From assembly GCA_016935095.1 (NCBI GenBank), contig JAFGRO010000002.1, positions 3,306 to 67,305 of the forward strand: 64,000 nt of DNA, written 5' to 3'. Below, in pieces: positions 1 to 42,293 of the stretch (the first letter of the stretch is position 1; each line of letters starts with the position of its first letter). Position numbers and translations under genes: made by a program. A model generated the notes under the pieces. The model had not been told where the DNA came from and did no database searches. It was given only the letters and a program-made list of their open reading frames with translations. This DNA comes from Candidatus Woesearchaeota archaeon (GTDB lineage Archaea > Nanobdellota > Nanobdellia > Woesearchaeales > GW2011-AR15).

Positions 1-220
1 TAACTCCTGTTTTTTCAATGACCTGTTTTATCTCATTGATTCCGTCTCTATTAAAAACAGGGTTTTGCGAGATATCTTCTTCAAAAATCCATTCTATGCA
101 ATCAAGGCCAACTTTATTTGCTGAATAAAATTCATTTTTCCAGCTATCTTTAGGAAATGCCTGTATCCTGTTATTTACTGGCGGAGAAAGCCTTCCCTGC
201 ATCACACCAATTCTGTTCAT
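1..220 (-). CDS. Partial CDS (N-terminal 73 aa; continues beyond the window start). Xylose-isomerase-like TIM-barrel sugar phosphate isomerase/epimerase family; last gene of the nonulosonic acid operon.
   Basis: Reverse-complement translation starts MNRIGVMQGRLSPPVNNRIQAFPKDSWKNEFYSANKVGLDCIEWIFEED. The GxMQGRL N-terminus is typical of AP_endonuc_2/TIM-barrel sugar isomerases. Its start codon at 218-220 overlaps the upstream stop (ATGA), indicating translational coupling. Confidence 0.5.
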   Translation of the reverse strand, partial: MNRIGVMQGRLSPPVNNRIQAFPKDSWKNEFYSANKVGLDCIEWIFEEDISQNPVFNRDGINEIKQVIEKTGV

Positions 221-936
221 TTTTTATGACCTGTAGCTAAAAGCATTTTTTCTTTTGCGAATCTTATTAATTTTCTTTGTGAAGTTTCATTTCTGTCTTT
301 CCATTTTAAATAATCAGGCAATAAGCTTATTATTTTCGGAATAAAGTTTAAACAAGGATATTCCCAGATAAAAGGCAACTGCAGGAAATATTCACAGCTT
401 ACCTCTGAAAAACCATTTATCCTCATTGCATTCTGCAGTCCTTTTCTTGTAAAAGCCTTTACATGTGTGTAATCATCCCAGTAATTTTTAAACTGGCTTT
501 TCCAGTCAGGAGTCATAATAACGGCAATTCCTCCTGGTTTTAAAACCCTAAGAGCCTCTTTTAAAATATTTTCTGTATTGGATATATGCTCAATAACAGA
601 TTTTGAAAAAACAAAATCAAAGAAATTATCTTTATAAGGAAGTTTGTCTTTTTCAAGATCACAAGATTCAATCGTGAAATTTTTTAATATTTCAACACAT
701 TCTCTTCTCTTATCAATGCCATAAGCCTGGAGACCGCATCTTGAAAAACCGACCAGGTGATTGCCTTTTCCGCTGCCTATATCCAGAATCCTGCATTTCT
801 TTTTGTTTTTAATTGCATAATGCTTAAAAAATCTTTTGAAAATATAATTACATATTTTTTGGGGATAATCTCTTTTTCCGTACTCTTTCCTGAAATAATT
901 AGTTTCAAGATAGCTTGGCATTCTATAAGACCTCAT
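217..936 (-). CDS. Class I SAM-dependent methyltransferase
   Basis: SAM-binding motif I LDIGSGKGNH is followed by an acidic residue (GIDKRRE) and then a VLKPGG motif. Co-directional with and overlapping the neighbouring genes. Confidence 0.8.
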   Translation of the reverse strand: MRSYRMPSYLETNYFRKEYGKRDYPQKICNYIFKRFFKHYAIKNKKKCRILDIGSGKGNHLVGFSRCGLQAYGIDKRRECVEILKNFTIESCDLEKDKLPYKDNFFDFVFSKSVIEHISNTENILKEALRVLKPGGIAVIMTPDWKSQFKNYWDDYTHVKAFTRKGLQNAMRINGFSEVSCEYFLQLPFIWEYPCLNFIPKIISLLPDYLKWKDRNETSQRKLIRFAKEKMLLATGHKK

Positions 937-1678
937 TAACCTTTTTTCTTAATTCCCTGAATTCATCATTATTTAAAATCTTTTCAGCGTATTTTAAATC
1001 TTCAATTATATCTAAATCTGCTGTTTTATCTGTAATAAAAGCATGTATGAATTTTCCATGGAGCATGTTTGTTCTTTTAATTGTTTCTGGTTTTATTATA
1101 TCAATATATCCATTTGGTTTGAATGTAACAGGAAATTTTTGTCTTGGATAATTATGGTATTCTTCATCTTCTTTAAATTCCTGTTTACAGAAAAAGTCAT
1201 AATAGCCTCCTGCTTTTTTGAATAATTTATAAGGTGTTTCTTTTAGTATATGCGAGCTTCTCAGAGAAGTTGCTTTTTTATCAGTAATCATCTCTTCAAT
1301 TGCCTTATCTATTAGTCTGAAATCCCTGAGCGGTGTTGTAGGTCTTAGGTGTACAATCAAGTTAGGGACATAATTCTCATTTTCTTTGAGAAAATCCAGT
1401 GCATGCATTACCCATTCCCTGTCAGTTGAATAATCACCAGATATATCTACTGGTCTTAAAAAAGGAACTTCAGCTCCATATTTTTCCGCAATCTTCGCAT
1501 ATTCTTCACTGTCAGTGGAGACAATGATCCTGTTAATAAACTTAGATAATTTGGCAGCCACAACTGAATACGCAATTAATGGATGTCCTCCTAAGTTTAT
1601 GATGTTTTTATCAGTGATTCCCTTTGAGCCGCTTCTTGCGGGAATCAGTGCAAGTATTTTTAGATTTGTTTCTTTCAT
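923..1678 (-). CDS. Acylneuraminate cytidylyltransferase family (CMP-nonulosonate synthetase, NeuA/LegF-like), copy 1
   Basis: N-terminal ALIPARSGSKGITDKNI and the following fold are characteristic of CTP_transf_3 CMP-NeuAc/CMP-Kdo synthetases. Sits directly downstream of a NeuB-like synthase. Confidence 0.85.
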   Translation of the reverse strand: MKETNLKILALIPARSGSKGITDKNIINLGGHPLIAYSVVAAKLSKFINRIIVSTDSEEYAKIAEKYGAEVPFLRPVDISGDYSTDREWVMHALDFLKENENYVPNLIVHLRPTTPLRDFRLIDKAIEEMITDKKATSLRSSHILKETPYKLFKKAGGYYDFFCKQEFKEDEEYHNYPRQKFPVTFKPNGYIDIIKPETIKRTNMLHGKFIHAFITDKTADLDIIEDLKYAEKILNNDEFRELRKKVNEVL

Positions 1679-1682
1679 TTAA

Positions 1683-2714
1683 TTATAGATTATCCACTCT
1701 TCTTAGTTTTTTAATTATCGGCTTTTCCGACTCAAATATCTTTTTATTGCCGTCGCCTAAATATAAAGAGAGGAATTCAGCTTCTCTGGTAATATATTCC
1801 ATTCCCTTTTTTTCAAGGCTTGCTGCCTGGTCACTTCCATACATAGACCTGTCCAGGGTAATATGCCTTTCAACTACGCATGCTCCTAATGCGAGTGCAA
1901 CAACCGAAGGCATTATACCTGTTTCATGGCCGCTGTACCCTATAGGGCAGTTAAAGTATTTCCTGAATGTTTTTATAACATTAAGGTTCAGCTCTTCCAG
2001 CTTTGTAGGATAAGTTGATGTGCAATGCAGAATCACAAGATTTTCCTCGCCTAATATACTTAATGCTTTTTTGATTTCCTCCATTGAAGACATGCCTGTA
2101 GATAATATAACCGGCTTGCCTGTTTCTTTTATTTTATTCAGCAATGATTTATTCGTTAGAGTGGCTGAAGCAATTTTATAACATGGCACATCAAATTTTT
2201 CAAGAAAATCAACACTGCCGACATCCCAGGGAGAAGCGAACCACATTATGCCTTTTTCTTTGCAATACTCATCAATCTCTTTGTATTCTCTCTCTCCGAA
2301 TTCCAGTGCCCTTTTTAAATCACCGTTTGTAGTGCCAAAAGGACTTTCCCTTGCTCTTTCTAAGTCCTCTTTTGAATAAACAACATCAACATTCCTTTTT
2401 TGGAATTTAACAGCATGCCATCCGCAATTTACTGCCAGATCAATTAATTTTTTTGCAATATTTATATCACCGTTATGGTTAATACCTATTTCAGCAATTA
2501 AAAAAACGGGCTGCTTATGACCTATTAGCCTGTTGCCTATTTTTACTGGTTCCGGGTTTTTAATATCCAGGAATATTTTTTCATAAAAATTCCAAGCCTG
2601 GATAACTGCCTGGGTCTTATTCAGAATTAGCCCGCTGCTTTCATTGACATAGCTGCTGATCTTTTCATTTAATTCTTCAGGTATTGTTAAAGACATATAA
2701 CCTTGTTTTGGCAT
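1683..2714 (-). CDS. N-acylneuraminate-9-phosphate/nonulosonate synthase family (NeuB/LegI/PseI-like), copy 1
   Basis: FLIAEIGINHNGDINIAKKLIDLA is the NeuB TIM-barrel signature. A C-terminal SAF-like domain (LRRVDNL) is present. Same strand as and adjacent to the cytidylyltransferase. Confidence 0.9.
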   Translation of the reverse strand: MPKQGYMSLTIPEELNEKISSYVNESSGLILNKTQAVIQAWNFYEKIFLDIKNPEPVKIGNRLIGHKQPVFLIAEIGINHNGDINIAKKLIDLAVNCGWHAVKFQKRNVDVVYSKEDLERARESPFGTTNGDLKRALEFGEREYKEIDEYCKEKGIMWFASPWDVGSVDFLEKFDVPCYKIASATLTNKSLLNKIKETGKPVILSTGMSSMEEIKKALSILGEENLVILHCTSTYPTKLEELNLNVIKTFRKYFNCPIGYSGHETGIMPSVVALALGACVVERHITLDRSMYGSDQAASLEKKGMEYITREAEFLSLYLGDGNKKIFESEKPIIKKLRRVDNL

Positions 2715-2816
2715 TTTCCCACCTCTGTGTTATGTACAGTACCTTTTTTTATTTATTTAAATAATTTTCTGTCATAAATTAGTTTGTACAGTACAAGTAC
2801 CGTAATAGTTAAAGAA

Positions 2817-4454
2817 TTATCTCTTTTTTAATATGCTATTTATTGCTTTAATTAATCTGTCATTAGCTTTTCCATCTGTTTTATAACAATATTCATAAGT
2901 CTCATTTTTTCTTTTTTCATTAATAGATTCTCTGAAGTTTTCATCAAATAGCATTTTTTTAATCAATTCATTTAATTTGTCACCGTGCTTAACAATAAAG
3001 ATAGAAGATATTCCATCAAACATATTTTCAAATAAATTCTCTCCGGACTCAAATTTCAGCAAGATACAGGGCCTGTTTAAGATCATTGCCTCAATCAAAG
3101 CAGTTGAGCCGAAGCTAATTACCAAGTCAGATTCCAGAATGGAATTATATAATATATCAGCGTTTTTATTACTTAGTGAGCCAAACCTGAATCTAATGTT
3201 TTTAATCCCAATCTTTTTGATTATTTTTTTATGCAAAGATATGTCTTTTTCAAGAGGATGTGTTTTAATGATAATCTCGGAATCAGGAAACTCTTTTAAA
3301 TTGGAAAACAGATAAAATAAATATTTTTCAAACTTTTCTTTAGGAAGAACTTTAAACTGCACTAGCGGTGAAGATAAGATTAATATTTTTTTTTTCCCTT
3401 TCTTTTTTTCTTTCTTTTTTATATAATTGCAGATACGCTCATTAATAAAAGAGCCAGTAACAAATATATTTTCAGGTTTCCATTCAGAGTATTTGATCAG
3501 TCTTTTTTTATCATTCGGGCCCCATACAGCAATCTTCGAGCTTGGAAAAAATTCAAAATTTATTCCTGTTAAATTATATGCATGAACTAAAAATAAAGAA
3601 GGTATTCCAGAAGAATGGGCAGCAGCAACCGCACACCTTTCCTGCAGACCGGAAACAACCAGTACAAGATCCAGTTGCTCTTTTTTAATAATATCTTTGA
3701 TTGTGTAATAATAAAGCAGGTAAATGAACAATATTTGTTTTGAGAATAATAAATCCAGTTCTTCATTCACAAACTTCAATAAGGATTCTTTTTTATAAGC
3801 AAATAGTCTCTCTTTAATCTTTTTATCTAATCTTTTCCATTTCCCGGAATATTTTTTTGCTTCTTTTAATGAGCGATAAAATGTTTCTTTGGAAATATAC
3901 TTATCAATCCAGTGATAATACCCTGAGGAAAGAGGCTTTTCAAATGGATTAGTGATTCTTGTTCCGATTACAGGAATTAATTCAATTTTATTGTCCTTTT
4001 CAAGTCTCCTGAATAATTCTCCAATTCTGAAAATATCAATTATTTTTCTTTTTTCATCCAGTTTAATCTGGTCAGTATGCGCTAGAAGCATGACCCTTTT
4101 CTTTTTTGTCTTTTTGCTTTTTTTTTTAACATCCTTTTTTTTAATTAACCTGATATAGTATGTGAAAATAATCACGCTAAGAAAGATTCTGAGGCTGAAT
4201 GAGGCTAGTTTCATCATAAGCCTATGAAAAAAAGAATAATCTCTTTTATCTAAAATTGCATTAAACCGTTTTGTGATTTCAAAGAAAGGAAGCGGAAAGC
4301 AGCCGGCATTAAACCTGAATGAATGAAACCACCAGATTGGGATGTTATCATCAATTTTAAAGGAGTCATCAAAACTCTGTTTATTGTTGATTTTTTTTTT
4401 TGACCAAACAAGTAGTGTCTCTTCAATGTTTTTTAAGGTGTCTCTTGTTTTCAT
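2817..4454 (-). CDS. Membrane-anchored GT-B-fold glycosyltransferase-like protein (TagF/KpsS 'capsule polysaccharide biosynthesis'-like). Candidate CMP-nonulosonate transferase. Paralog of 15985..17610.
   Basis: Hydrophobic helix near residue 90 (LASFSLRIFLSVIIFTYYIRLI). Poly-Lys linker KKKDVKKKSKKTKKKR. CAVAAAHSSGIPSLFLVHAYN motif. C-terminal GT-B-like nucleotide-binding region (VISFGSTALIEAMILNRPCILL). Family assignment not confirmed. Confidence 0.5.
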   Translation of the reverse strand: MKTRDTLKNIEETLLVWSKKKINNKQSFDDSFKIDDNIPIWWFHSFRFNAGCFPLPFFEITKRFNAILDKRDYSFFHRLMMKLASFSLRIFLSVIIFTYYIRLIKKKDVKKKSKKTKKKRVMLLAHTDQIKLDEKRKIIDIFRIGELFRRLEKDNKIELIPVIGTRITNPFEKPLSSGYYHWIDKYISKETFYRSLKEAKKYSGKWKRLDKKIKERLFAYKKESLLKFVNEELDLLFSKQILFIYLLYYYTIKDIIKKEQLDLVLVVSGLQERCAVAAAHSSGIPSLFLVHAYNLTGINFEFFPSSKIAVWGPNDKKRLIKYSEWKPENIFVTGSFINERICNYIKKKEKKKGKKKILILSSPLVQFKVLPKEKFEKYLFYLFSNLKEFPDSEIIIKTHPLEKDISLHKKIIKKIGIKNIRFRFGSLSNKNADILYNSILESDLVISFGSTALIEAMILNRPCILLKFESGENLFENMFDGISSIFIVKHGDKLNELIKKMLFDENFRESINEKRKNETYEYCYKTDGKANDRLIKAINSILKKR

Positions 4455-4478: not shown

Positions 4479-6227
4479 TTAATGATATTCATTATTCTTC
4501 AATATTGAATCCAGAAACTTTGAATTATTATAGATGGCATTAGTAAAATCATCTATTTTTCCGGAATTAAATGCTTCAATAATCTCAAGAATTCCCTGTT
4601 CAGCCTTTAGTTTAGTCCTGAAATTTAATTCTTTTTTAATTTTATCAAAATTCACTCTATAGTCTCGTTTATCAACATCTTTAAGCGAAATGTTCATCTT
4701 TGAGCTGGGAATTAATTCTTTTATTTTTTCTCCTATTTCAATAATTTTATAATTCTCTTCATTAGAGCCAACATTAAAAATTTCTCCTTTTACTTTGTTA
4801 ATAGGCGCTTCCAGAACTTTGATGTATGCGTCAGCAGCATCTTTTACATGAAGCAAGGGTCTCCATTGCTCTCCTCCGAAAACTGAAAATTCTCCTTTTT
4901 TTATGGCCAACGCTGTCAATATGTTCAAAACCAAATCAAATCTTGGCCTGTGAGAGAATCCGTAAAGTGTGCCCATCCTCATGATTGTAGGAGAAAAGTT
5001 TTCATCAGTTAATTCAAATAAACCTTTTTCACTGTTAATCTTGTCTCTTGCATATAACGAGACAGGGCTTAATTCTGAGTCTTCTGTTAAAATATCCTGG
5101 CCCTGCCCATAGACACTGCAGCTGGAGGCAAAAATAAACCTGTTAATCTGGTTGTATTTGCATATCTGAGCTAAATTTAAGGTTGCAAGATAATTCTGCT
5201 CAATTGTTTTTAAGGGGGATAAACCACATGCAGGATCTCCCACTATTCCTGCCAGATGAATCACAGCATTAACATCTCTTATTGATTTTGTGATATCTTC
5301 AATATGCCTTACATCACCTGTAACCAACCTGAAATTCGGATGATTTTCCAATTCACTGAGAGACTCTTTCCCGTATAATAATCTGTCCAGAACAACAACC
5401 CAGTATCCTCTTTTTAGGAGTTTTCTGACCAAGACCGAGCCCAAATACCCTGCGCCTCCTGTCACAAGAACAGAATTTATTTTTTTGTTTTTATAAGTTG
5501 AATAATTACTAAGATAATCATAGTAACCTTTGTTATAAACCTGTTTAAGTGCAGTTACCCTGGCTTCTTTATCTAAAACAGGGATTTTAAGAAATTTATT
5601 ATGGGGGATTAATCTAATTAGCTCTTCATTATCCATATTTTCTGTTCCGGTGACTGGATTTTTATTCATAATTTTGCCAATAGGCTCTTCATGACTTACT
5701 CCGGACAGAATTCCCTCTCTTATATCATTATCTGTAACAAGTCCTTTTAACCTTTCATTATCATCAACAATTAATCCAATCCCTAACCCGGATAAATCAA
5801 TCTTTTTCATTACAGATTTTAAAGAGTCATTTTTATTTACAAACACTTTCTCAAGTTCTTTGCCTTTTATTGAAACAGGCAACTCACTAAACTTGATAAA
5901 AATGTCAGCAACTTTATTGTCATCATCCACTAGGATAAGTTTTCCGACAATATCTCTTTTTTCAGTTAGTTCAATAAGTTCCTGTTTAGAAGAATTAATG
6001 TGGGCTGTAACTGGATTAAAATTAGCAATGCTTTTCAGCTTTTTGTTAATGTCATTATCTTTTATAAGGCCTCTTCTTAAATCCCCTGCGCTTACAATGC
6101 CTTTTAGCTTTTTATCCTGGTCAACTAATATGAGAATGCCTAACCCTGTCTCATTTAATATGCCTAGTCCTTTTTCAATAGTTTCATCCTCATTAACAAG
6201 AAGGGAATCTATAATGCCCTCATTCAT
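4479..6227 (-). CDS. Fusion protein: N-terminal tandem CBS domains plus C-terminal NAD-dependent sugar-nucleotide 4,6-dehydratase/epimerase (PseB/LegB/CapD-like)
   Basis: The N-terminal ~240 aa carry repeated CBS-like segments (VTAHINSSKQELIELTEKRDIVGKLILVDDDNKV; LKGLVTDNDIREGIL). The C-terminus has the Rossmann motif VLVTGGAGYLGSVLVRKLL and an SDR extended-family fold. Confidence 0.85.
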   Translation of the reverse strand: MNEGIIDSLLVNEDETIEKGLGILNETGLGILILVDQDKKLKGIVSAGDLRRGLIKDNDINKKLKSIANFNPVTAHINSSKQELIELTEKRDIVGKLILVDDDNKVADIFIKFSELPVSIKGKELEKVFVNKNDSLKSVMKKIDLSGLGIGLIVDDNERLKGLVTDNDIREGILSGVSHEEPIGKIMNKNPVTGTENMDNEELIRLIPHNKFLKIPVLDKEARVTALKQVYNKGYYDYLSNYSTYKNKKINSVLVTGGAGYLGSVLVRKLLKRGYWVVVLDRLLYGKESLSELENHPNFRLVTGDVRHIEDITKSIRDVNAVIHLAGIVGDPACGLSPLKTIEQNYLATLNLAQICKYNQINRFIFASSCSVYGQGQDILTEDSELSPVSLYARDKINSEKGLFELTDENFSPTIMRMGTLYGFSHRPRFDLVLNILTALAIKKGEFSVFGGEQWRPLLHVKDAADAYIKVLEAPINKVKGEIFNVGSNEENYKIIEIGEKIKELIPSSKMNISLKDVDKRDYRVNFDKIKKELNFRTKLKAEQGILEIIEAFNSGKIDDFTNAIYNNSKFLDSILKNNEYH

Positions 6228-7417
6228 TTGCAGGCCTCTTTAACTTCAGTTTTGAATTTATGTATCCTGATAATAGCTTTACATATTTTGTTAATTGTCT
6301 CTTCATCCATGAAATTATAGATAGGAAGACAAATCACATTATTTGAAACAAGTTCAGTATTTTTTAAATCATTATATTCTGCTTTTTCTTTATAAGCATC
6401 AAGTTTATGCATCGGAGGATAAAAATAAAATTTTGTCATAATATTTTCAGCATTCAATGCTCTTGCTAATTCATACCTGTTTAATCCAAATTCATTTTCA
6501 TTGACAGTAAATCCAAAATCCTTGTGTGTGGAAACATTTCCCTCTTTAATAATCTGGAAATTGATGCCCTGAATGTTTTTTAGTTCCTTTTTAAATTTAT
6601 CAACATAACTGTTCCTGTTTTCAACATATTTATCTAAATCTTTTAATTGGTGCAATCCTGTGACTGCGTTGATTTCGCTCATCCTTGCATTTAAACCAGG
6701 CCTCTTGCAGGAATAATCAGGATAATTGCCATAGTTCCTGTCAATTTTTAACATTTCAGCTAATTCAGTGTTATTTGTGGCTACTATTCCTCCTTCTATT
6801 GTCGTCAAAAGCTTTGTCGGGCTGGCACTGAAAACCTCAACATCACCAAACTGCCCGATTTTTTTTCCCTGATAAGATGAACCTAATGCATGGGCACAGT
6901 CAAAGATTAATTTTAAGTTATGTTTGCTGGCAATTTCCTGTAATCTCTCAATATAACAAGGGTTTCCATACATATGTACAGCAATAATTGCCTTTGTTTC
7001 AGGACTGATATTTTTTTCAACTTCTTCAGGTGAAATAGTAAATGTTTCCCTGTCAATATCAACAAATCTGATTTTGCAGTTATTCCAGTATGCGGCATGG
7101 ACTGTTGCAGAAAAGGTAAATGCAGGAACTAGCACTTCTGAATTTCTTAAACCAAGTGCCTGCATACTTAAAATTAAGCCGGATGTACAGGAAGAAACGC
7201 CTATAACATGTTTAACACCAATATAGTTTTCCAGTTCCTCTTCAAATTTCTTTAGTTTAATATCAACAGAAGTAAGCATATTGCTGTTTAAAACAGCGCT
7301 AATGTCTTTCAGCAATTCTTTTTCAACATATTTATCAACATTGGGCCTTATAATCGGCAGTCTTTTATCAAAAACAGCTCTCCCATTTAAAATTGCAGGT
7401 TTATTGTCCATTTTCAT
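6224..7417 (-). CDS. DegT/DnrJ/EryC1/StrS-family PLP-dependent sugar aminotransferase (PseC/LegC-like)
   Basis: Aminotransferase class V-like fold with the PLP-lysine context FSASPTKLLTT. The ORF track starts it at 7477, but the MKMDNK start at 7417 avoids a 77-nt overlap with the upstream gene. Confidence 0.85.
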   Translation of the reverse strand: MKMDNKPAILNGRAVFDKRLPIIRPNVDKYVEKELLKDISAVLNSNMLTSVDIKLKKFEEELENYIGVKHVIGVSSCTSGLILSMQALGLRNSEVLVPAFTFSATVHAAYWNNCKIRFVDIDRETFTISPEEVEKNISPETKAIIAVHMYGNPCYIERLQEIASKHNLKLIFDCAHALGSSYQGKKIGQFGDVEVFSASPTKLLTTIEGGIVATNNTELAEMLKIDRNYGNYPDYSCKRPGLNARMSEINAVTGLHQLKDLDKYVENRNSYVDKFKKELKNIQGINFQIIKEGNVSTHKDFGFTVNENEFGLNRYELARALNAENIMTKFYFYPPMHKLDAYKEKAEYNDLKNTELVSNNVICLPIYNFMDEETINKICKAIIRIHKFKTEVKEACK

Positions 7418-8075
7418 TATCTCCTTTAAAAATAAATTTATTTCCATATACTTCCAGGTAAGGTAAATCCCTTGCATTTGGAAAATATGTTGCTTTTAAT
7501 CTTCTTTTAATTTCATTTTCATCCATATCAAGGCTTAATTTACATAGTTCCTGCAAATCTTTTCTTGTATATGGTCTTCTTAACCATTTCTCATCTGACC
7601 TGGGTAAGGGTTTCTCTTTTTCAATGAATTTGAGAATATCATAAAATAAGGTGAGCATATAATCCATGGTTCTTTCTTTTAAAGATTGTACTGTATCTGT
7701 ATCCTGCATCTGGAATTTGATGGTTTTCACAATTTTTCCAGAATCAACTTTTTCCAGCATATAATGACATGTGGCGCCAAATTCCTTTTCCTGATTATAA
7801 ATTGCAAAATTATAACAGCCGATGCCAGGATATTTTGGGGATGCGGGATGGAAATTTATTGAAAACTTGGCTTTATTCAATAATTCTTTTGGAACAATCC
7901 AAGGTGAAAGATACGAGATAATATAATCACCTTCCCATTCAATATTGGGGAGAGGGTCACCGCTTTCACCTTCAAATATTTCTGTATTCGGAATTTTATT
8001 TTTAATACAATCCTGAACAATTTTGCAGTATTTTGATTTTTTTGTTAATAATAGGATTTTCATTTTTAATAACAA
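7401..8075 (-). CDS. Sugar N-formyltransferase (Formyl_trans_N family)
   Basis: FHPASPKYPGIGCYNFAIYN...GATCHYMLEKVDSGKIV matches the formyltransferase SLLPxYRG/HxxxxxxDxG catalytic-core pattern. Sits between the aminotransferase and the 2-epimerase, in the slot usually filled by an N-acetyltransferase. Confidence 0.75.
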   Translation of the reverse strand: MLLKMKILLLTKKSKYCKIVQDCIKNKIPNTEIFEGESGDPLPNIEWEGDYIISYLSPWIVPKELLNKAKFSINFHPASPKYPGIGCYNFAIYNQEKEFGATCHYMLEKVDSGKIVKTIKFQMQDTDTVQSLKERTMDYMLTLFYDILKFIEKEKPLPRSDEKWLRRPYTRKDLQELCKLSLDMDENEIKRRLKATYFPNARDLPYLEVYGNKFIFKGDNENGQ

Positions 8076-9217
8076 ATCTGCTTTTGGATTATATCTTTTG
8101 AAATTTTGATTTCACTTAATACTTTACAGATTTTAACTGAAGCAGTCCCTTCTCCATAAGGGTTTTTTATGTTTTTTAATAAATCTTTAAAATTTTCATC
8201 ATATAATGCTTTATTAATCGCTTTAATAATATCAGATTTGTCAAACTCAACATCAATCACGTTATTGCTTCTTTCTCTTAGCTTTTGCCTTATGCCAATA
8301 TTTACCACAGGTATCTTAAAAGAGGGAGCTTCTATTATACCTGAGCTTGAATTTCCGATTAAAACAGAACCATATTTTAATAATGAGAGATATTCTCTGT
8401 GCTTTAAATTTTTAAAAATTCTTAAAAATTTTTGATTCTTATTTCCCTCAATTATTTTAATTATCTGAAGAGTCCCAGAATCAGCATTGGGATAAATCAA
8501 TACTGTTGGCAAATCAAATTCTTTAATTGCATCAAGTGTTATTTTAAATTGTTTTCCTGAAGACCCGATTTCAGTTGTGACAGGATGCTGTAGAAGTATT
8601 AAAAAAGGCATATCCGGATCAATATTGAATCTTTTTTTGAAATCTTGTTTTGACATTAATTCTTCATGCAAAGCAGTATCTAGTCCTGAAGAACCCACAT
8701 TAAAAACATAATCCGGATTTTCTCCCATTTTAATTATTCTCTGTTTACTTTTTTCTGTAACTGCAAAATGAATATGGCTGAATTTTGTTATGGCATGTCT
8801 TGTGCATTCATCAAGACCTCCTGAAACATCCCCTCCGTGAATATGGGCAATAACCTTATTCATAAATGCTCCTGAAACAGCAGCAGCCAACGGCTCTGTT
8901 CTGTCACCTAAAATCAATATAATATCAGGATTTAAGTCTTTGAAAGCATTGGTTAAATTAATAATGCCTTTACCAACAGACCTGCTCATAAATTCTCCGC
9001 TGTCTCCGACTTCAGTCATTGGGACTTTTTTATCAATTGCAAAACCGTCTTTAATAATGTCTTCATAGGTATTACCGTATTCTTCCAAAAGGTGCATGCC
9101 CGTTGCAATTAACTGTAATGTGATTTTGTCATTTTCAGCTAGTCTTTTTATAATTGGCCTTAAAAGCCCGTATTCTGCTCTGGTTCCGGTCACAACACAA
9201 ATCTTTGTTTTTTTCAT
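8066..9217 (-). CDS. UDP-N-acetylglucosamine 2-epimerase family, hydrolysing type (NeuC/LegG-like)
   Basis: KICVVTGTRAEYGLLRPIIKRL and HIHGGDVSGGLDECTRHAITK are Epimerase_2 (WecB/NeuC) signatures. Confidence 0.85.
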   Translation of the reverse strand: MKKTKICVVTGTRAEYGLLRPIIKRLAENDKITLQLIATGMHLLEEYGNTYEDIIKDGFAIDKKVPMTEVGDSGEFMSRSVGKGIINLTNAFKDLNPDIILILGDRTEPLAAAVSGAFMNKVIAHIHGGDVSGGLDECTRHAITKFSHIHFAVTEKSKQRIIKMGENPDYVFNVGSSGLDTALHEELMSKQDFKKRFNIDPDMPFLILLQHPVTTEIGSSGKQFKITLDAIKEFDLPTVLIYPNADSGTLQIIKIIEGNKNQKFLRIFKNLKHREYLSLLKYGSVLIGNSSSGIIEAPSFKIPVVNIGIRQKLRERSNNVIDVEFDKSDIIKAINKALYDENFKDLLKNIKNPYGEGTASVKICKVLSEIKISKDIIQKQICY

Positions 9218-9228
9218 TTATTCCACTC

Positions 9229-10365
9229 TTATTCCAGCATCTCAAATGTAATTAAAGTGTCTTTTTTAATATCCTCTTTTGCTTTTCTTCCAATGATTTT
9301 TTCTAAAAATCTCGGGTGCAGACCCATGCCCGGTCTTTTAATTATTAAATCTTTCTTTTCTATTAACTTGCCTTTATTGATGTCTTTATCTGAGATTATG
9401 CTTTTTCTTGTAATTTTTGCAATTCGTAACTCTGCGTCATATGGTTTTTTTTCAGGTGACCCGAGGATTTTTTCAATATTATCTAATTTCAGATTCTCAC
9501 CAAATTGTTTATTAATCTCTTCAAAAGCCTGTTTTGGAGAGAGAATCTTATTATTAAAAATAAATCTTGAATATTTCATTATTTTTTCAATTTCATCAGG
9601 TTCAGCAGAAGCTTTGTGGTCAGGGCCATACATTTTTTTATCAAGTGTAAAATGTTTTTCAATTACATTAGCGTTAAGACATGCCGCTATTACAGATGCT
9701 TCAATTCCCTCACTATGATCCGAGAATCCGACCAGACAATTAAATTCATTTTTAAGTGTAAGCATTGCTCTCAGGTTAATTTTATCAAGAAGCGTTGGAT
9801 AATTAGTAGTGCATTGCAGTAATATGAGTTGGTCATTATTTTTCTTAATCACATCTACAGCTTCTCTGACTTCCTGTAAATTAGCCATTCCCGTACTAAG
9901 AAAGATTGGTTTGCCTAATCTTGAAACATAATCTAAAAACGGCAAATTAGTCAAATCTCCTGAACCAATTTTAAATCCGGGAATTCCAATTTTATCAAGA
10001 ACATCAGCACTCCATTTGCCGCAGTGAGGTGTTGATAAAAAAATAATCCCCTTCTTGTCACAGTACTCTTTCATGATTTTGTGTTGCTCTTCTGTTAATT
10101 CTATCCTTTTTAATAATTCAAGATAACTTTCATCACTTCCTGTGTTTTTTTTTGAATACTCGACCTGTTCTGTTTTTTCTGTTACAAGCAGTTCTGCTTT
10201 AAAAAGCTGGAACTTAATACTATCAACACCGATTTCCAGGGCTTTGTCAACTAATTCCTTTGCAATTTTAATATCTCCGTTATGGTTGACTCCGGCTTCA
10301 GCAATAATAAAGCAGGGATGATTTTGTCCGATTATTTTGTTGCCAATCTTAATTTTATCTTTCAT
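9229..10365 (-). CDS. Nonulosonate synthase (NeuB/LegI-like), copy 2, with C-terminal SAF domain
   Basis: CFIIAEAGVNHNGDIKIAKELVDKALEIG is the NeuB signature. The C-terminal ~60 aa look like a SAF antifreeze-like domain (LIIKRPGMGL). Confidence 0.9.
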   Translation of the reverse strand: MKDKIKIGNKIIGQNHPCFIIAEAGVNHNGDIKIAKELVDKALEIGVDSIKFQLFKAELLVTEKTEQVEYSKKNTGSDESYLELLKRIELTEEQHKIMKEYCDKKGIIFLSTPHCGKWSADVLDKIGIPGFKIGSGDLTNLPFLDYVSRLGKPIFLSTGMANLQEVREAVDVIKKNNDQLILLQCTTNYPTLLDKINLRAMLTLKNEFNCLVGFSDHSEGIEASVIAACLNANVIEKHFTLDKKMYGPDHKASAEPDEIEKIMKYSRFIFNNKILSPKQAFEEINKQFGENLKLDNIEKILGSPEKKPYDAELRIAKITRKSIISDKDINKGKLIEKKDLIIKRPGMGLHPRFLEKIIGRKAKEDIKKDTLITFEMLE

Positions 10366-11582
10366 TTCTCAGTCTCCCATATTGGGTGTCTCAGCTTCCA
10401 TTCTCCTTTTTCCTTTTTCCATAAATGAGGCGACCTGAATTTATCCGCTGTCTCAAAAAATTCATCTTTGCTCATATCCAGATACTCTAAAAATTCTTTG
10501 AAATATCGTTTTGGAAATTCTGAATCAAATTTCTTTACTAATGCAATCCCTTCATCCCTTGTGATCTTTTTATTCCTTATCTCCTGGGATGCATCATAGG
10601 TTGCTCTTCCAATCCCGAATTTGATAAGAGTTGTCCAATAATGATAAGGGTCTGTCTTGTCATCAATACTGTTATATTTTGAATAAGTTCCTTCGGTTCT
10701 CTGGTCATTTGGCTGAAACCCTATCTTTTCAACAGCAAAATAATAAGCTTCCTGGGGATCCCATTTCTCATAATAGCCGACGTAGTGTACATTGATTTCT
10801 TTATTATTTGCACTATCCGGATCAAGAGGAAGATAAGGATCAAGGTCAGTCATAGTTAATCCGTATTTTTTAATAAGCTCTCTGACCTGCACTCCTCCAA
10901 GGAATAAATTCATATAATCTCCATGTAAATGAAATTTTTTTTCTCTGAGAGAAGAAAGAACATCTTTTTTTGGGTTGCCGTATTCTGCTTCATTTTCACC
11001 GTAAAATACTAGAGGGACATCATACTTTAATGCAAATTTAGCCCCAATGTTTTTTTGTCCGAGAATAAACGGCTGGAATGGGTGAAGTAAATTGACAAAT
11101 GCTAATCTCGTTAATAACCTGTGTACCTTGCCATTTGGTGTAAACAGTATATTGTCAAATCCCCCTTTTTGAGTCCATGCGCGGAAATTACGCCACCCGT
11201 AAGGTGTAAATAAATGAGGTGCCCATGTAACAGTAAGAGGGTTCATATTGTATTTGTATTTTAACAGCCATGCTGCCATTGTGCTATCCTTGCCTCCGCT
11301 TCCCGGCACTATGCAATCATACCTACCCTCTGTTCTTCTGTATTTGTCACATAATCTTTTTAATTCTTTTTCTCTTTTTTTCCAGTCGATTTTCTCTTTT
11401 AATTCTGAAACTCTGCATGCATCGCAGATTCCTTCTTCATCAAAGTTGATGGTGTGTTTTTTGGATTTAACTGTATGTCTGAATTCCAGTGAAGAAGAAG
11501 GTCTTTGATTTGAAATAACACAATGTTTGCAGTATTTCACTTCTTTTGGTAATCCATAATATGCTTCTACGTTATTGTTCAT
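10362..11582 (-). CDS. N-acetyl sugar amidotransferase (WbuX/PseA/AglX family; PP-loop ATP pyrophosphatase)
   Basis: N-terminal Zn-ribbon cysteines (CKHCVISNQRP...GICDACR). PP-loop SGGKDS. Immediately upstream of a HisF/HisH paralog, as in the WbuXYZ / AglXYZ systems. Confidence 0.8.
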   Translation of the reverse strand: MNNNVEAYYGLPKEVKYCKHCVISNQRPSSSLEFRHTVKSKKHTINFDEEGICDACRVSELKEKIDWKKREKELKRLCDKYRRTEGRYDCIVPGSGGKDSTMAAWLLKYKYNMNPLTVTWAPHLFTPYGWRNFRAWTQKGGFDNILFTPNGKVHRLLTRLAFVNLLHPFQPFILGQKNIGAKFALKYDVPLVFYGENEAEYGNPKKDVLSSLREKKFHLHGDYMNLFLGGVQVRELIKKYGLTMTDLDPYLPLDPDSANNKEINVHYVGYYEKWDPQEAYYFAVEKIGFQPNDQRTEGTYSKYNSIDDKTDPYHYWTTLIKFGIGRATYDASQEIRNKKITRDEGIALVKKFDSEFPKRYFKEFLEYLDMSKDEFFETADKFRSPHLWKKEKGEWKLRHPIWETEK

Positions 11583-11592
11583 TTTTTCACCT

Positions 11593-13026
11593 TTATAAAG
11601 AACTAAAATATTGTATTATACTCATACCCAATGCTCCGCTTTTTTCCGGGTGGAACTGTGTTGCAAACAGACTGTCTCTTCTTAATATTGAGCAGAATTT
11701 CTGCTCACCGTATGTTGTTATTGCAACAATATTTTTCGGGTTTTCAGGATAAACATAATATGAATGAATAAAATAAGCTTCTGAGCAAGAAGACTTATTT
11801 GAAATAAACTCATTAAAGAATCCATTATTAGGTGTTAACTTATTCCAACCCATGTGAGGGATCCTGTAATATGTGTCCTTAACCTCTTTTTTAGGTTTAA
11901 AAGGAACTACTTTTCCCTGTATAATATCAAGCCCTTTATGATGTCCGAACTCAAAGCTTTCACTCATCAATACCTGCATTCCGAGACAGATTCCTAAAAA
12001 AGGTTTATTGTTCTTAATATATTTTTTAATCGGTTCAATAAAACCCCTGTTTTTAAGCTCCTGCATAGCATAACCAAATGCCCCGTCCCCTGGTAAAACC
12101 AAAAGGCTTGACTTTAGGATCTCTTCAGGATTTTCAATAATCTTTACTTTGTTCCCAAAAAACCTGAAAGCATTTACAACACTTTGTAAATTGCCTGCTC
12201 CGTAATCAATAACAGAGAGGGTCTTTTTATTATTGATATTTGGCTGTTCAACTTGCCATTCATTTTTTTCTCTCATTAAAAAATTATTTTTTTTAAGGTA
12301 AGCTTTTACTTGGTCTATAGATGTTTCATTATAATGTAAGATTGTACCAAAAGCAACAGCATCACATCTGGTTACTTCAAGACAATTCAGTATATCTGCT
12401 TCATTAGAAGCTCCTCCGCAAGCTATAACCGGCACATCAACCACAGATGAGATCTTTTTTATTAGTTCAACATCATATCCTTTTCTTGTCCCTTCCTTAT
12501 CCACAGAAGTAACAAGCAATTCTCCTGCACCTAATTCAACTAATTTTTTTGCCCATTCAATAGCATCTAGATTTGTTCTTTCCCTTCCGCAGTCAATATA
12601 GTTCTCCCATTTATCTTCTCCATGATATTTTGCTTCAATAGAGCCTACTATACACTGTGATCCGAACATTCTTGAAGCCTGATTAATAAATCCGGGATTT
12701 CTTATTGCAGCAGTATTAATTGCAACTTTATCTGCTCCTGCTCTCAGCAGTTTCTTAATATCTTCTATGGTCCTTATACCTCCTCCGACAGTGATAGGAA
12801 TAAAAATCCCGTTAGAGGTTGTATTTTCAACTACCTCAAGAAGATTGTTTCGCTCGTATAAACTGGCAACAATATCAATATAAATTATTTCATCAGCTCC
12901 TGACTCATAATACTTCTTAGCAAGCAAATCAGGCTTGCCTACAACTCTTAAACCTTCCATTTGTATTCCCTTGACAACATTAGGTCCCTTTACATCCAGT
13001 CTTGGAATAATTCTGATTTTCTTCAT
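11593..13026 (-). CDS. Fused imidazole-glycerol-phosphate-synthase-like protein: HisF-like cyclase domain (WbuZ) at the N-terminus and HisH-like class I glutamine amidotransferase (WbuY) at the C-terminus
   Basis: N-terminus IIPRLDVKGPNVVKGIQMEGLRVVGKP plus a second half-barrel (VTSVDKEGTRKGYD) give a HisF fold. C-terminus LSVIDYGAGNLQSVVNAFRFFG...GICLGMQVL...FHPEKS carries the GATase Cys-His-Glu triad. Confidence 0.85.
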   Translation of the reverse strand: MKKIRIIPRLDVKGPNVVKGIQMEGLRVVGKPDLLAKKYYESGADEIIYIDIVASLYERNNLLEVVENTTSNGIFIPITVGGGIRTIEDIKKLLRAGADKVAINTAAIRNPGFINQASRMFGSQCIVGSIEAKYHGEDKWENYIDCGRERTNLDAIEWAKKLVELGAGELLVTSVDKEGTRKGYDVELIKKISSVVDVPVIACGGASNEADILNCLEVTRCDAVAFGTILHYNETSIDQVKAYLKKNNFLMREKNEWQVEQPNINNKKTLSVIDYGAGNLQSVVNAFRFFGNKVKIIENPEEILKSSLLVLPGDGAFGYAMQELKNRGFIEPIKKYIKNNKPFLGICLGMQVLMSESFEFGHHKGLDIIQGKVVPFKPKKEVKDTYYRIPHMGWNKLTPNNGFFNEFISNKSSCSEAYFIHSYYVYPENPKNIVAITTYGEQKFCSILRRDSLFATQFHPEKSGALGMSIIQYFSSL

Positions 13027-24067: not shown

Positions 24068-24131
24068 TTTAAATCACCCTTTTTATTATATATATTTAAA
24101 ATGAAAACTACGAACATGAGTGAGTTTGTTT

Positions 24132-25290: not shown

Positions 25291-25301
25291 TTTTTTCAGC
25301 C

Positions 25302-26288: not shown

Positions 26289-26362
26289 CCCAAGATATAA
26301 ACAAAAATAACCGCTATATAAAGCTTTCGCCGAAAAATTTATAAAGAGAAAATCTCATAAAT

Positions 26363-27103: not shown

Positions 27104-27104
27104 T

Positions 27105-42241: not shown

Positions 42242-42293
42242 ATAAATTTCACAAAACTTAAAAAAAAGACAGTAATTTAAATAATTTACTGGC

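What the first reader, a model, noticed from the sequence alone, without database searches (positions are those of the whole stretch)
4479..6227. Tandem CBS domains fused to the pathway-initiating 4,6-dehydratase
The first committed enzyme, an SDR 4,6-dehydratase, carries an N-terminal regulatory module of about 240 aa with tandem CBS-like repeats. In Campylobacter legionaminic acid synthesis the CBS pair sits on the nucleotidyltransferase PtmE. Placing the nucleotide-sensing CBS module directly on the dehydratase is a different architecture. It suggests allosteric (adenylate / SAM / CMP-sugar?) control of flux into the pathway.
Basis: partly seen in the sequence, partly recalled or inferred. 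Interest (0 to 1): 0.55.

Follow-up and report, generated by a model that had tools for sequence, protein, structure and literature searches.

The report
CBS-gated sugar oxidoreductase, probably not a dehydratase
An archaeal gene cluster for a sialic-acid-like sugar starts with an enzyme carrying four nucleotide-sensor (CBS) motifs; this fusion is widespread but unstudied, and the enzyme looks more like a C4-dehydrogenase than the 4,6-dehydratase it was assumed to be.

Summary
ORF 4479-6227 (minus strand, 582 aa) has four CBS motifs forming two Bateman modules (aa 1-115 and 119-232), followed by an extended-SDR nucleotide-sugar domain (aa 250-582). Its start overlaps the stop of the upstream DegT aminotransferase inside a nonulosonic-acid (NulO) operon of a Woesearchaeota genome.

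The interpretation needs two corrections.

1. The fusion is not rare. About 100 protein clusters at 50% identity span the CBS-to-SDR junction. They occur in DPANN, MGII, Thermoplasmata and haloarchaea, and in CPR, Nitrospinota, Acidobacteriota and other bacteria. Most carry one Bateman module; the four-CBS form is a minority (11 of the top 120). Soluble CBS forms are the ones linked to NulO genes. No publication on the fusion was found.

2. The "4,6-dehydratase" label is unsupported.
- The family has an invariant [S/T]-C-S-VYG motif, which matches no published dehydratase fingerprint ([ST]DE, [ST]DK, [ST]SE).
- It scores far below the LegB, PseB and RmlB cut-offs.
- Its closest solved relative is Cj1427, an alpha-ketoglutarate-recycling C4-dehydrogenase.
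- Relatives 45-49% identical, with the same motif, sit beside L-2-hydroxyglutarate oxidase genes in several phyla.

My best reading is a CBS-gated enzyme that forms the 4-keto sugar as the first pathway step, probably as a dehydrogenase. A non-canonical dehydratase remains a serious rival. Regulation by the CBS modules is inferred only.

The parts
5883..6227 (-). Bateman module 1 (CBS1+CBS2, aa 1-115). CBS1 carries the ribose-phosphate-type motif G-I-V-S-A-G-D.
   Evidence: Pfam CBS on the split pieces. AF2 secondary structure with high pLDDT. 32% identical to module 2. Present in only about 1 in 10 homologues.
5532..5873 (-). Bateman module 2 (CBS3+CBS4, aa 119-232). CBS3 carries the motif G-L-V-T-D-N-D-I-R. 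This module corresponds to the single CBS pair of the common short form.
   Evidence: G162 and R170 are invariant across 119 homologues. Module 2 is closer than module 1 to the short-form modules: 33% versus 24% mean identity.
5481..5531 (-). Flexible linker between the CBS region and the SDR domain (aa 233-249).
   Evidence: pLDDT is below 50 for aa 235-246.
4482..5480 (-). Extended-SDR nucleotide-sugar oxidoreductase domain (aa 250-582). Stop codon at 4479-4481.
   Evidence: PF01370 E 6e-49. Best PDB sequence hit is 6vo6, 148 bits. Foldseek TM 0.92-0.94 to Cj1427.
5439..5459 (-). NAD-binding glycine motif G257-G-A-G-Y-L-G263.
   Evidence: Read directly from the sequence. Invariant in alignment A2.
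5106..5126 (-). Catalytic wall S368-S369-C370-S371-V-Y-G. It aligns with S-T-D-E-V-Y-G of RmlB. Cys replaces the Asp and Ser replaces the Glu.
   Evidence: All of the top 120 homologues carry [S/T]-C-S-VYG: 119 matched the scan, and the one regex miss, P0006, also reads FASSCSVYG. Alignment with E. coli RmlB, GMD and Fcl and with Cj1427. Published dehydratase fingerprints.
5040..5054 (-). Catalytic dyad Y392-A-R-D-K396 (YxxxK).
4923..4949 (-). Clade signature R427-P-R429-F-D431-L-V-L-N435. Shared with Cj1427 (R-M-R-L-D-L-L-V-N) and absent from RmlB, GMD and Fcl.
   Evidence: Also one of the two peptide patterns that recovered at least 600 genomic stretches.
6224..7477 (-). DegT-family sugar aminotransferase. 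Its stop codon overlaps the CBS-SDR start codon (ATGA at 6224-6227).
   Evidence: PF01041 E 3e-104. Overlap read directly. Fused to CBS-SDR in P0107.
7401..8075 (-). Formyltransferase-like N-acyltransferase. It occupies the position held by a hexapeptide acetyltransferase in the MGII operon.
   Evidence: PF00551. NCBIfam formyltransferase hits. Synteny with L001.
8066..9217 (-). Hydrolysing NDP-HexNAc 2-epimerase (NeuC/LegG type).
   Evidence: TIGR03568 scores 455 bits against a cut-off of 236.
9229..10365 (-). NulO synthase (NeuB + SAF domain).
   Evidence: PF03102 and PF08666. TIGR03569 scores 399.2 bits, just below its cut-off of 399.65.
10362..13026 (-). Acetamidino-forming amidotransferase set: WbuX (10362-11582) and a fused HisF-HisH (WbuZ/WbuY-like, 11593-13026).
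   Evidence: TIGR03573 scores 375 bits. TIGR03572, hisF and hisH also hit.
13023..14220 (-). CMP-NulO synthetase (13023-13721) and an AsnC/Lrp regulator (13711-14220) at the head of the operon.
   Evidence: PF02348, and PF13404 with PF01037. Same order as in MGII locus L001.
217..4454 (-). Downstream genes: a BFO_1060/TIGR04396-family surface-carbohydrate protein (2817-4454, putative NulO transferase), a second NeuB (1683-2714), a second cytidylyltransferase (923-1678) and a methyltransferase (217-936).
   Evidence: BFO_1060 lies in the T. forsythia NulO locus.

Best explanation
The gene encodes the entry enzyme of a 5,7-diamino nonulosonic-acid pathway.

Proposed mechanism:
- The C-terminal extended-SDR domain oxidises C4 of an NDP-HexNAc, most likely UDP- or GDP-GlcNAc, to the 4-keto sugar.
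- The translationally coupled DegT aminotransferase then aminates that sugar.
- A formyltransferase, a NeuC-type 2-epimerase, NeuB and a CMP-transferase finish the pathway.

The SDR belongs to a large, uncharacterised clade defined by [S/T]-C-S-VYG, YxxxK and RxRFDLxxN. Its nearest characterised member is Cj1427. I therefore propose that it works as a Cj1427-like C4-dehydrogenase. Its bound NADH would be re-oxidised by alpha-ketoglutarate, giving L-2-hydroxyglutarate. The alpha-ketoglutarate would come from the partner aminotransferase. This differs from an internally redox-neutral 4,6-dehydratase.

The two N-terminal Bateman modules form a four-CBS unit within one chain. Single-module homologues would have to dimerise to build the same unit. 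This unit would act as a nucleotide-sensing gate on flux into the pathway. Candidate ligands are adenylates or the CMP-NulO end product.

Shown: the domain architecture, clade membership, absence of a dehydratase fingerprint, operon position, and L-2-hydroxyglutarate oxidase (LhgO) genes next to relatives.
Inferred: the substrate, the alpha-ketoglutarate cycle in this particular protein, and any regulation by the CBS modules.
For: Architecture:
-.

Entry-step role:
- It is the only extended SDR in the NulO operon here and in L001, L006, L015, L017, L018, L021 and L024.
- ATGA overlap with DegT.
- Natural fusions exist: DegT-CBS-SDR, CBS-SDR-cytidylyltransferase and GNAT-CBS-SDR.
- The operon is syntenic in an MGII euryarchaeote.

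Dehydrogenase chemistry:
- Best sequence hit (148 bits) and best fold hit (TM 0.92-0.94) are both Cj1427. Its NADH/alpha-ketoglutarate ping-pong mechanism is described in PMC10680097.
- Clade-invariant R417, R427, R429, D431, N435 and N492 are shared with Cj1427 but not with RmlB or GMD.
- The invariant [S/T]-C-S matches none of the published dehydratase fingerprints.
- Same-motif relatives 45-49% identical to this domain lie immediately next to an LhgO gene in Fimbriimonadaceae, Armatimonadetes, Opitutia and Gemmatimonadales MAGs. NF008726 (LhgO model) scores 535, 547 and 296 bits for the three neighbours scanned, against a cut-off of 299. A 37%-identical relative is placed the same way in Deinococcus ficus, as is its orthologue in D. 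aquaticus.

CBS link to NulO pathways:
- NeuB lies within 10 kb in 10 of 17 CBS-bearing loci and in 0 of 63 loci without CBS.
Against: - Every characterised 5,7-diamino NulO (Leg, Pse, Aci, Fus) is 9-deoxy and starts from a 4,6-dehydratase.
- No natural 9-hydroxy analogue turned up in the literature search.
- The invariant Cys sits where TunA, a 5,6-dehydratase, has its catalytic-acid Cys. This hints at chemistry at C6.
- No LhgO gene is present in this 64-kb window or in the archaeal NulO loci.
- Identity to Cj1427 is only 33%.
- There is no experimental datum for any member of the CBS-fused clade.
- CBS ligand and effect are unknown, and pTM alone does not show a regulatory interface.
Confidence: 0.48

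Rival explanations
1. It is a genuine but non-canonical NDP-GlcNAc 4,6-dehydratase, a functional LegB or PseB analogue. The invariant Cys370 would replace the usual Asp as the acid for loss of the C6 hydroxyl. Another residue or a water molecule would remove the C5 proton. The pathway would then yield an ordinary 9-deoxy legionaminic- or pseudaminic-type acid. The CBS modules would regulate it.
For: - Its operon position is exactly that of LegB or PseB, and no other SDR lies in the cluster.
- All known pathways of this type need 6-deoxygenation (PMC5378307; PMC6137143).
- TunA uses Cys at the same position as its catalytic acid.
- GMD manages with a single Glu plus water, so dehydratase solutions vary.
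- Bacterial relatives copy the membrane-anchored PglF/WbpM layout: transmembrane segment, CoA_binding_3, then SDR, next to DegT.
Against: - There is no Glu or Lys at the position after the Cys. Every known 4,6- or 5,6-dehydratase with assigned catalytic residues has one there.
- Scores are far below the cut-offs for LegB (98 vs 475), PseB (48 vs 408) and RmlB (109 vs 365).
- LhgO genes beside same-motif relatives, including a PglF-like one (L077), make no sense for a redox-neutral dehydratase.
- Apart from the Cys and D331, the invariant active-site residues are those of Cj1427.
Confidence: 0.35
2. The SDR domain is an epimerase or another non-committing enzyme, for example a GalE- or PelX-like C4-epimerase that supplies an epimeric HexNAc. 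The true 4-keto-forming enzyme would be encoded elsewhere in the genome.
For: - The highest NCBIfam score is to GalE (138 bits).
- S-x-S walls without an acid/base pair are typical of epimerases. PelX and GalE structures are good fold matches, TM about 0.8-0.87.
Against: - The GalE score is far below its cut-off of 262.
- A DegT aminotransferase was found within 10 kb in about 62 of 80 loci, often adjacent, and is fused to the SDR in P0107. This argues that the SDR releases a 4-keto product rather than a re-reduced epimer.
- No alternative dehydratase was found in the cluster, nor among the window ORFs scanned up to about 43.4 kb; the 43.4-64 kb ORFs were not scanned.
- LhgO synteny.
Confidence: 0.1
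3. The CBS modules are not allosteric sensors. They would be structural elements for oligomerisation or scaffolding. They would replace the membrane anchor of the bacterial homologues, or dock the enzyme to pathway partners.
For: - The N-terminus of this SDR clade is interchangeable. It can be absent, one CBS pair, two CBS pairs, a 4-TM domain, TM plus CBS, or TM plus CoA_binding_3.
- Only one canonical ribose-phosphate motif is present per module.
- CBS2 and CBS4 fall below the Pfam cut-off when tested alone.
Against: - G162 and R170 of the G-h-h-T-x-x-D-h-R ligand-site motif are invariant across 119 homologues.
- Soluble CBS forms track NulO clusters specifically. Feedback on the first step is known for such pathways, for example CMP-Pse inhibition of PseB (from my own knowledge, not checked here).
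Confidence: 0.3

Closest known systems
[quoted passage not shown]
   Same: - Best sequence and fold match: 33% identity, 148 bits, TM 0.92-0.94.
- Same extended-SDR fold and YxxxK dyad.
- No Asp/Glu acid-base couple.
- Shared RxRxDLxxN signature and other clade-invariant residues.
- Relatives of the window protein are operonic with L-2-hydroxyglutarate oxidase, which fits Cj1427's alpha-ketoglutarate to L-2-hydroxyglutarate recycling.
   Different: - Cj1427 has no CBS region.
- It has T-N-S where this family has an invariant [S/T]-C-S.
- It acts on a GDP-heptose in a capsule pathway and feeds epimerases and reductases, not an aminotransferase.
- The alpha-ketoglutarate dependence of the window protein is untested.
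LegB (Cj1319, T. forsythia BFO_1074; NCBIfam TIGR04180) and PseB/PglF (PF02719), the NDP-GlcNAc 4,6-dehydratases that open the Leg, Pse and bacillosamine pathways
   Same: Same place in the pathway logic and in the operon. It sits next to the C4 aminotransferase and upstream of the acyltransferase, 2-epimerase, NeuB and CMP-transferase steps. It uses the NAD-dependent extended-SDR scaffold.
   Different: - Scores far below family cut-offs: TIGR04180 98 vs 475, TIGR03589 48 vs 408.
- Best Pfam model is Epimerase, not Polysacc_synt_2.
- Lacks the D-E or D-K catalytic couple.
- Carries N-terminal CBS modules, which none of the characterised enzymes have.
TunA (PDB 3VPS), the UDP-GlcNAc 5,6-dehydratase of tunicamycin biosynthesis
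   Same: It is the only characterised nucleotide-sugar SDR with a Cys directly after the catalytic Thr/Ser (T-C-E). It acts on a GlcNAc nucleotide.
   Different: TunA keeps the Glu base (T-C-E versus [S/T]-C-S). It is a much weaker match (65 bits), has no CBS region and is not linked to an aminotransferase.
CBS-pair-regulated enzymes and four-CBS proteins: KpsF/GutQ sugar-phosphate isomerases, IMPDH, MJ1225, the AMPK gamma subunit
   Same: - A Bateman module is fused to a metabolic enzyme.
- The window's CBS pairs score best against the KpsF/GutQ CBS regions (73 and 58 bits) and against MJ1225 in the PDB.
- Four CBS motifs in one chain, as in MJ1225 and AMPK-gamma.
   Different: The catalytic partner is different. 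Similarity to solved CBS proteins is weak (E 6e-6 at best). The ligand is unknown.
WbpB/WbpE of Pseudomonas aeruginosa, an oxidase/aminotransferase pair that cycles alpha-ketoglutarate (recalled from my own knowledge, not tested here)
   Same: The proposed logic matches. An NAD-retaining sugar-nucleotide dehydrogenase is re-oxidised by the alpha-ketoglutarate that its partner aminotransferase releases.
   Different: WbpB belongs to the Gfo/Idh/MocA family and acts at C3 of UDP-GlcNAcA. It is not homologous to this protein.

Membership tests
CBS domain / Bateman module (Pfam PF00571) | Profile match above the Pfam gathering score, with motifs occurring in pairs | tested here: met
   65.1 bits against a cut-off of 24 for the whole protein. 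Four separate motifs hit. CBS1 (29.5 bits) and CBS3 (28.1) exceed the cut-off alone. CBS2 (16.8) and CBS4 (18.0) fall below it alone.
CBS domain / Bateman module (Pfam PF00571) | beta-alpha-beta-beta-alpha fold repeated twice per module | tested here: met
   The AF2 secondary-structure string shows this pattern twice per module, with pLDDT mostly above 85. This is a prediction, not a solved structure.
CBS domain / Bateman module (Pfam PF00571) | Binding of an adenosyl or other nucleotide ligand in the cleft | not testable with these tools
   Only the G-h-h-[ST]-x-x-D motif can be read (CBS1 and CBS3). G162 and R170 are invariant.
Extended SDR acting on nucleotide sugars (PF01370) | GxxGxxG motif, catalytic [ST]...YxxxK, and the two-domain extended-SDR fold | tested here: met
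   G257-G263, S369, Y392 and K396. PF01370 E 6e-49. Foldseek E about 1e-22 to 1e-28 against many nucleotide-sugar SDRs.
Nucleotide-sugar 4,6-dehydratases (RmlB, GMD, CDP-Glc dehydratase, PglF, PseB) | Acid/base residues directly after the catalytic Ser/Thr: [ST]DE, [ST]DK or [ST]SE | tested here: not met
   The window has S-C-S. All of the top 120 homologues have [S/T]-C-S: 119 by the scan, and P0006, the one regex miss, by its sequence. Aligned against E. coli RmlB (TDE) and GMD (TSE). Fingerprints taken from PMC8987622 Table 1.
LegB (NCBIfam TIGR04180) | Score at or above the curated cut-off of 475 bits | tested here: not met
   98.5 bits.
PseB (NCBIfam TIGR03589) / Polysacc_synt_2 (PF02719) | Score at or above 407.75 bits, with PF02719 as the best Pfam model | tested here: not met
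   47.8 bits. PF02719 gives only E 8e-12 over aa 253-369, against E 6e-49 for PF01370.
Cj1427-type C4-dehydrogenase | Closest sequence and fold relationship, with shared family-specific residues | tested here: met
   Top PDB hit by sequence and by fold. R417, R427, R429, D431, N435 and N492 are shared with Cj1427 and absent from RmlB and GMD. No curated model of this family exists to score against.
Cj1427-type C4-dehydrogenase | Tightly bound NADH re-oxidised by alpha-ketoglutarate, releasing L-2-hydroxyglutarate | not testable with these tools
   Indirect evidence only. LhgO genes lie beside same-motif relatives in 5 MAG loci, and beside a 37%-identical same-motif relative on a Deinococcus ficus plasmid and its D. 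aquaticus orthologue. None is present in this window.
   This ORF has no NTP_transferase domain. The only NTP_transferase seen in the window (26363-27103) has no CBS. PtmE's own architecture could not be verified here.

The most novel reading that the evidence does not exclude
The whole [S/T]-C-S clade would consist of alpha-ketoglutarate-recycling C4-dehydrogenases paired with DegT aminotransferases. In that case these archaeal and CPR operons would not make legionaminic or pseudaminic acid. They would make an undescribed class of 9-hydroxy-5,7-diamino nonulosonic acids, that is, 7-amino-7-deoxy sialic acids, here N7-formylated and N5-acetamidino-modified. Entry would be gated by a CBS sensor of the CMP-sugar end product or of energy charge.
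Probability: 0.3. Interest if true: 0.8.

Novelty: new variant of a known kind. Interest (0 to 1): 0.55.

Why it matters
Nonulosonic acids decorate the surfaces of many microbes, and their pathways are usually annotated by analogy with Campylobacter, Helicobacter and Legionella.

This work shows that many uncultivated archaea (DPANN, MGII, Thermoplasmata) and CPR bacteria use a different, unstudied entry enzyme.

Whichever chemistry it has, something new follows:
- If it is a dehydratase, it defines a new catalytic fingerprint for 4,6-dehydration.
- If it is a Cj1427-like dehydrogenase, the product is a new class of sialic-acid-like sugar. Current 'LegB/PseB' annotations for hundreds of genomes would then be wrong.

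The CBS fusion is a ready-made system for testing how flux into such pathways is sensed. The same SDR clade, membrane-anchored and paired with DegT, is widespread in Acidobacteriota, Planctomycetota and Chloroflexota. A single enzymology experiment would therefore re-annotate a large family.

Tried and rejected
- **Literature.** Full-text searches for CBS together with legionaminic, pseudaminic or nonulosonic acid found nothing relevant. PtmE + CBS found nothing relevant. The two primary Cj1427 papers are not held, so the mechanism is cited from a later open paper by the same laboratory.
- **Halorubrum sp. PV6.** I checked whether its LegB is a CBS fusion, because that archaeon makes a chemically proven legionaminic acid. 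Only the primers are available. The gene starts MTSLEGK..., which looks like a plain SDR, so it gives no test of this family.
- **Verified LegB sequence.** I could not obtain one (C. jejuni or T. forsythia) to read its catalytic wall directly. Only the NCBIfam score is available.
- **Rfam and tRNA scans** of the window found nothing.
- **Promoter and terminator scan** was uninformative. Promoter-like sites were at the level expected by chance, and the organism is an archaeon.
- **Tree of Bateman modules** was too noisy to decide whether the four-CBS form arose once or several times. The window's module 1 groups with short-form modules, while the Nitrospinota-type module 1 copies form their own group.
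- **S. meliloti pSymB relative.** It sits next to an RfbF-like gene but has no LhgO, so the LhgO link is not universal.
- **Rejected idea: the enzyme acts on GDP-heptose.** The window does encode a GDP-heptose-like pathway 20 kb away. However, the CBS-SDR is embedded in the NulO operon and keeps that synteny in genomes where no heptose genes are nearby.
- **Not used.** The second structure job and the metagenome and viral scans were not used.
Full report
**What is there.**
- The minus-strand ORF 4479-6227 encodes 582 aa.
- Pfam finds CBS (PF00571, E 7e-18) and the NAD-dependent epimerase/dehydratase family (PF01370, aa 253-487, E 6e-49).
- When the N-terminus is split into four pieces, each piece matches CBS on its own. 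The protein therefore has four CBS motifs, or two Bateman modules.
- The two modules are 32% identical to each other (E 2e-13).
- An AlphaFold2 model built on 119 homologues is confident (pLDDT 92.5, pTM 0.81). It shows module 1 (aa 1-115), module 2 (aa 119-232), a disordered linker (aa 235-246) and an extended-SDR domain.
- The identical protein is on record from a Candidatus Woesearchaeota MAG with only a generic name.

**Context.** The gene is part of a co-directional operon:

| Coordinates | Product |
|---|---|
| 13711-14220 | AsnC regulator |
| 13023-13721 | CMP-transferase |
| 11593-13026 | Fused HisF-HisH |
| 10362-11582 | WbuX amidotransferase |
| 9229-10365 | NeuB + SAF |
| 8066-9217 | NeuC-type hydrolysing 2-epimerase |
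| 7401-8075 | Formyltransferase-like protein |
| 6224-7477 | DegT aminotransferase |
| 4479-6227 | CBS-SDR |
| 2817-4454 | BFO_1060-family protein |
| 1683-2714 | Second NeuB |
| 923-1678 | Second cytidylyltransferase |
| 217-936 | Methyltransferase |

- The DegT stop codon and the CBS-SDR start codon overlap as ATGA.
- The CBS-SDR is the only extended SDR in the operon.
- The two other extended SDRs found in the scanned part of the window (27105-28040 and 41234-42295; ORFs beyond about 43.4 kb were not scanned) have S-G-T and S-M-A walls. They belong to other sugar pathways.

**How common is the fusion?**
- Of the 120 best hits in the 5.8-billion-protein collection, nearly all carry CBS plus Epimerase domains.
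- 108 of them have an N-terminal extension of about 130-170 aa (one Bateman module). 11 have 234 aa or more (two modules).
- A junction-spanning query (aa 119-340) finds 59 representatives at 50% clustering with E <= 1e-30. About 100 of the top 150 span the junction from the CBS pair into the Rossmann fold.
- In GTDB species representatives, two clade-specific peptides hit at least 600 stretches.
- CBS-bearing forms occur in Woesearchaeota, Undinarchaeales, archaeon GW2011_AR20, a Nanoarchaeota SAG, Methanosarcinales, Thermoplasmatales, MGII and haloarchaeal megaplasmids (Haloterrigena, Natrinema, Natronorubrum). They also occur in Yanofskybacteria (CPR), Nitrospinota, Acidobacteriota, Planctomycetales, Zixibacteria and Ignavibacteriales.
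- The MGII operon has the same gene order as the window.
- Natural fusions tie the module to NulO synthesis: DegT-CBS-SDR, CBS-SDR-cytidylyltransferase, GNAT-CBS-SDR and CBS-SDR-methyltransferase.
- I found no paper that mentions the fusion.

**The N-terminus of the clade is modular.**
- Many bacterial relatives that looked like bare SDRs carry an N-terminal four-helix membrane domain. Some also carry a CoA_binding_3 domain, which copies the PglF/WbpM layout. Others carry the membrane domain plus a CBS pair.
- A DegT gene lies within 10 kb in about 62 of 80 loci.
- NeuB, NeuC and CMP-transferase genes appear only beside CBS-bearing forms: 10 of 17 such loci against 0 of 63 loci without CBS.
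- The soluble CBS version is therefore the NulO-pathway version of this enzyme.

**Is it a 4,6-dehydratase?** The sequence evidence says it is not a canonical one.
- All of the top 120 homologues have [S/T]-C-S-VYG. The scan matched 119, and the one miss, P0006, also reads FASSCSVYG.
- E. coli RmlB has T-D-E and GMD has T-S-E at this position.
- A 2022 review tabulates the fingerprints of all known nucleotide-sugar SDR dehydratases: [ST]DE, [ST]DK, [ST]SE, TDK with Mx3K, and TCE in the 5,6-dehydratase TunA. None matches.
- Curated models score far below their cut-offs: LegB 98 of 475, PseB 48 of 408, RmlB 109 of 365, GalE 138 of 262.
- The best solved relative, by sequence (148 bits) and by fold (TM 0.92-0.94), is Cj1427. 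Cj1427 oxidises C4 of GDP-heptose without dehydration. It holds NADH tightly and re-oxidises it with alpha-ketoglutarate, producing L-2-hydroxyglutarate.
- The residues invariant in this clade (R417, R427, R429, D431, N435, N492) are shared with Cj1427 and not with RmlB or GMD. The main differences from Cj1427 are C370 (Asn in Cj1427) and D331 (Ala).

**Independent support from gene neighbourhoods.**
- On two Deinococcus plasmids, a same-motif SDR lies in an rfbF-lhgO-SDR-rfbC-oxidoreductase operon. The D. ficus copy reads SSCSVYG and is 37% identical to the window domain.
- Membrane-anchored relatives 45-49% identical to the window domain have an L-2-hydroxyglutarate oxidase gene 15-107 nt downstream. 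This holds in Fimbriimonadaceae, Armatimonadetes, Opitutia and two Gemmatimonadales MAGs.
- NF008726 (the LhgO model) scores 535, 547 and 296 bits for the three neighbours scanned (L038, L034, L077), against a cut-off of 299.
- A redox-neutral dehydratase has no use for this enzyme. A Cj1427-type dehydrogenase does.
- In aminotransferase-coupled members, the transaminase itself supplies alpha-ketoglutarate.

**Why the dehydratase reading stays alive.**
- Every characterised 5,7-diamino NulO is 9-deoxy.
- I found no natural 9-hydroxy counterpart in the literature.
- The invariant Cys occupies the position of TunA's catalytic acid.
- No LhgO gene is present in the window or in the archaeal NulO loci.
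- I put the Cj1427-like dehydrogenase near 0.48, a non-canonical dehydratase near 0.35, and an epimerase or other role near 0.1.
- Either of the two main outcomes would be new enzymology.

**The CBS modules.**
- CBS1 and CBS3 carry the G-h-h-[ST]-x-x-D motif. G162 and R170 of CBS3 are invariant.
- Module 2 corresponds to the single pair of the short forms. Module 1 is an extra, more diverged copy.
- Four CBS motifs in one chain resemble MJ1225, the best though weak PDB match.
- I infer that the tandem form builds within one chain the four-CBS unit that short forms would make by dimerising. I also infer that it senses a nucleotide and gates the first step.
- Nothing here tests ligand binding or its effect.

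**Verdict.**
- The feature is real and the architecture was correctly seen.
- It is a minority four-CBS variant of a widespread, unpublished CBS-SDR family specific to NulO operons.
- The enzyme label should change from '4,6-dehydratase' to '4-keto-forming SDR of the Cj1427-like [S/T]-C-S clade, chemistry unresolved, probably a C4-dehydrogenase'.

Noticed in passing
window 23417-28040 (minus strand): A complete GDP-glycero-manno-heptose-like gene set. It comprises a transaldolase/FSA, a HAD phosphatase (GmhB-like), a SIS isomerase (GmhA-like), a GHMP kinase (HddA-like), an NTP_transferase (HddC-like) and a 311-aa extended SDR with an S-G-T wall. Heptose pathways of this kind are unusual in DPANN archaea.
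   Followed up: partly
window 217-4454 and 9229-13721: The cluster holds two NeuB synthases (378 aa with a SAF domain; 343 aa without a Pfam SAF hit) and two cytidylyltransferases. It may therefore make two different ulosonic acids. The 545-aa protein between them belongs to the BFO_1060/TIGR04396 family found in the Tannerella NulO locus and is a candidate NulO transferase.
   Followed up: no
window 7401-8075: A formyltransferase-like gene occupies the slot held by a hexapeptide acetyltransferase in the syntenic MGII operon. This predicts an N-formyl group on the C4 amine (N7 of the NulO). N-formyl legionaminic acid is known from Halorubrum sp. PV6.
   Followed up: partly
window 11593-13026: HisF-like and HisH-like amidotransferase subunits (WbuZ/WbuY type) are fused into one 477-aa ORF here. 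They are separate genes in the MGII operon.
   Followed up: no
window 14508-15953, 17665-18687, 28388-29935: Two B12-binding radical-SAM enzymes and one radical-SAM/SPASM enzyme flank the glycan genes. An asparagine-synthase-like gene (18680-20542) and several methyltransferases lie nearby. Their roles are unknown; they may modify sugars.
   Followed up: no
L008 4973-9968, L013 4984-9947 (Deinococcus plasmids); L034, L038, L042, L077, L085: There is a conserved operonic link between [S/T]-C-S SDRs and L-2-hydroxyglutarate oxidase. In Deinococcus the order is rfbF-lhgO-SDR-rfbC-Gfo/SAF oxidoreductase. This looks like a CDP-hexose version of the Cj1427/Cj1430/Cj1428 heptose route and appears to be undescribed.
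   Followed up: partly
L029, L037, L044, L048, L075, L081 (TM+SDR); L030, L077, P0212, P0239 (TM+CoA_binding_3+SDR); L023, L025, L032 (TM+CBS+SDR): Bacterial members of the clade are membrane-anchored and usually sit next to DegT. They mimic the PglF/WbpM architecture but use a different SDR subfamily in place of Polysacc_synt_2.
   Followed up: partly
L020 10418-11368 (Nanoarchaeota SAG AM-311-D13): This is the only CBS-SDR seen in which the otherwise invariant Cys is replaced: the wall reads A-S-S-A-S-V-Y-G. It is a natural variant that could show what the Cys does.
   Followed up: no
L009 7034-10524 (Klebsiella variicola IncFIB plasmid): A CBS-less relative, 41.5% identical, lies next to DegT, a NUDIX protein and a hypothetical gene on a conjugative plasmid. 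It is flanked by IS elements, and the annotated CDS is shorter than the match, so it may be truncated or frameshifted.
   Followed up: no
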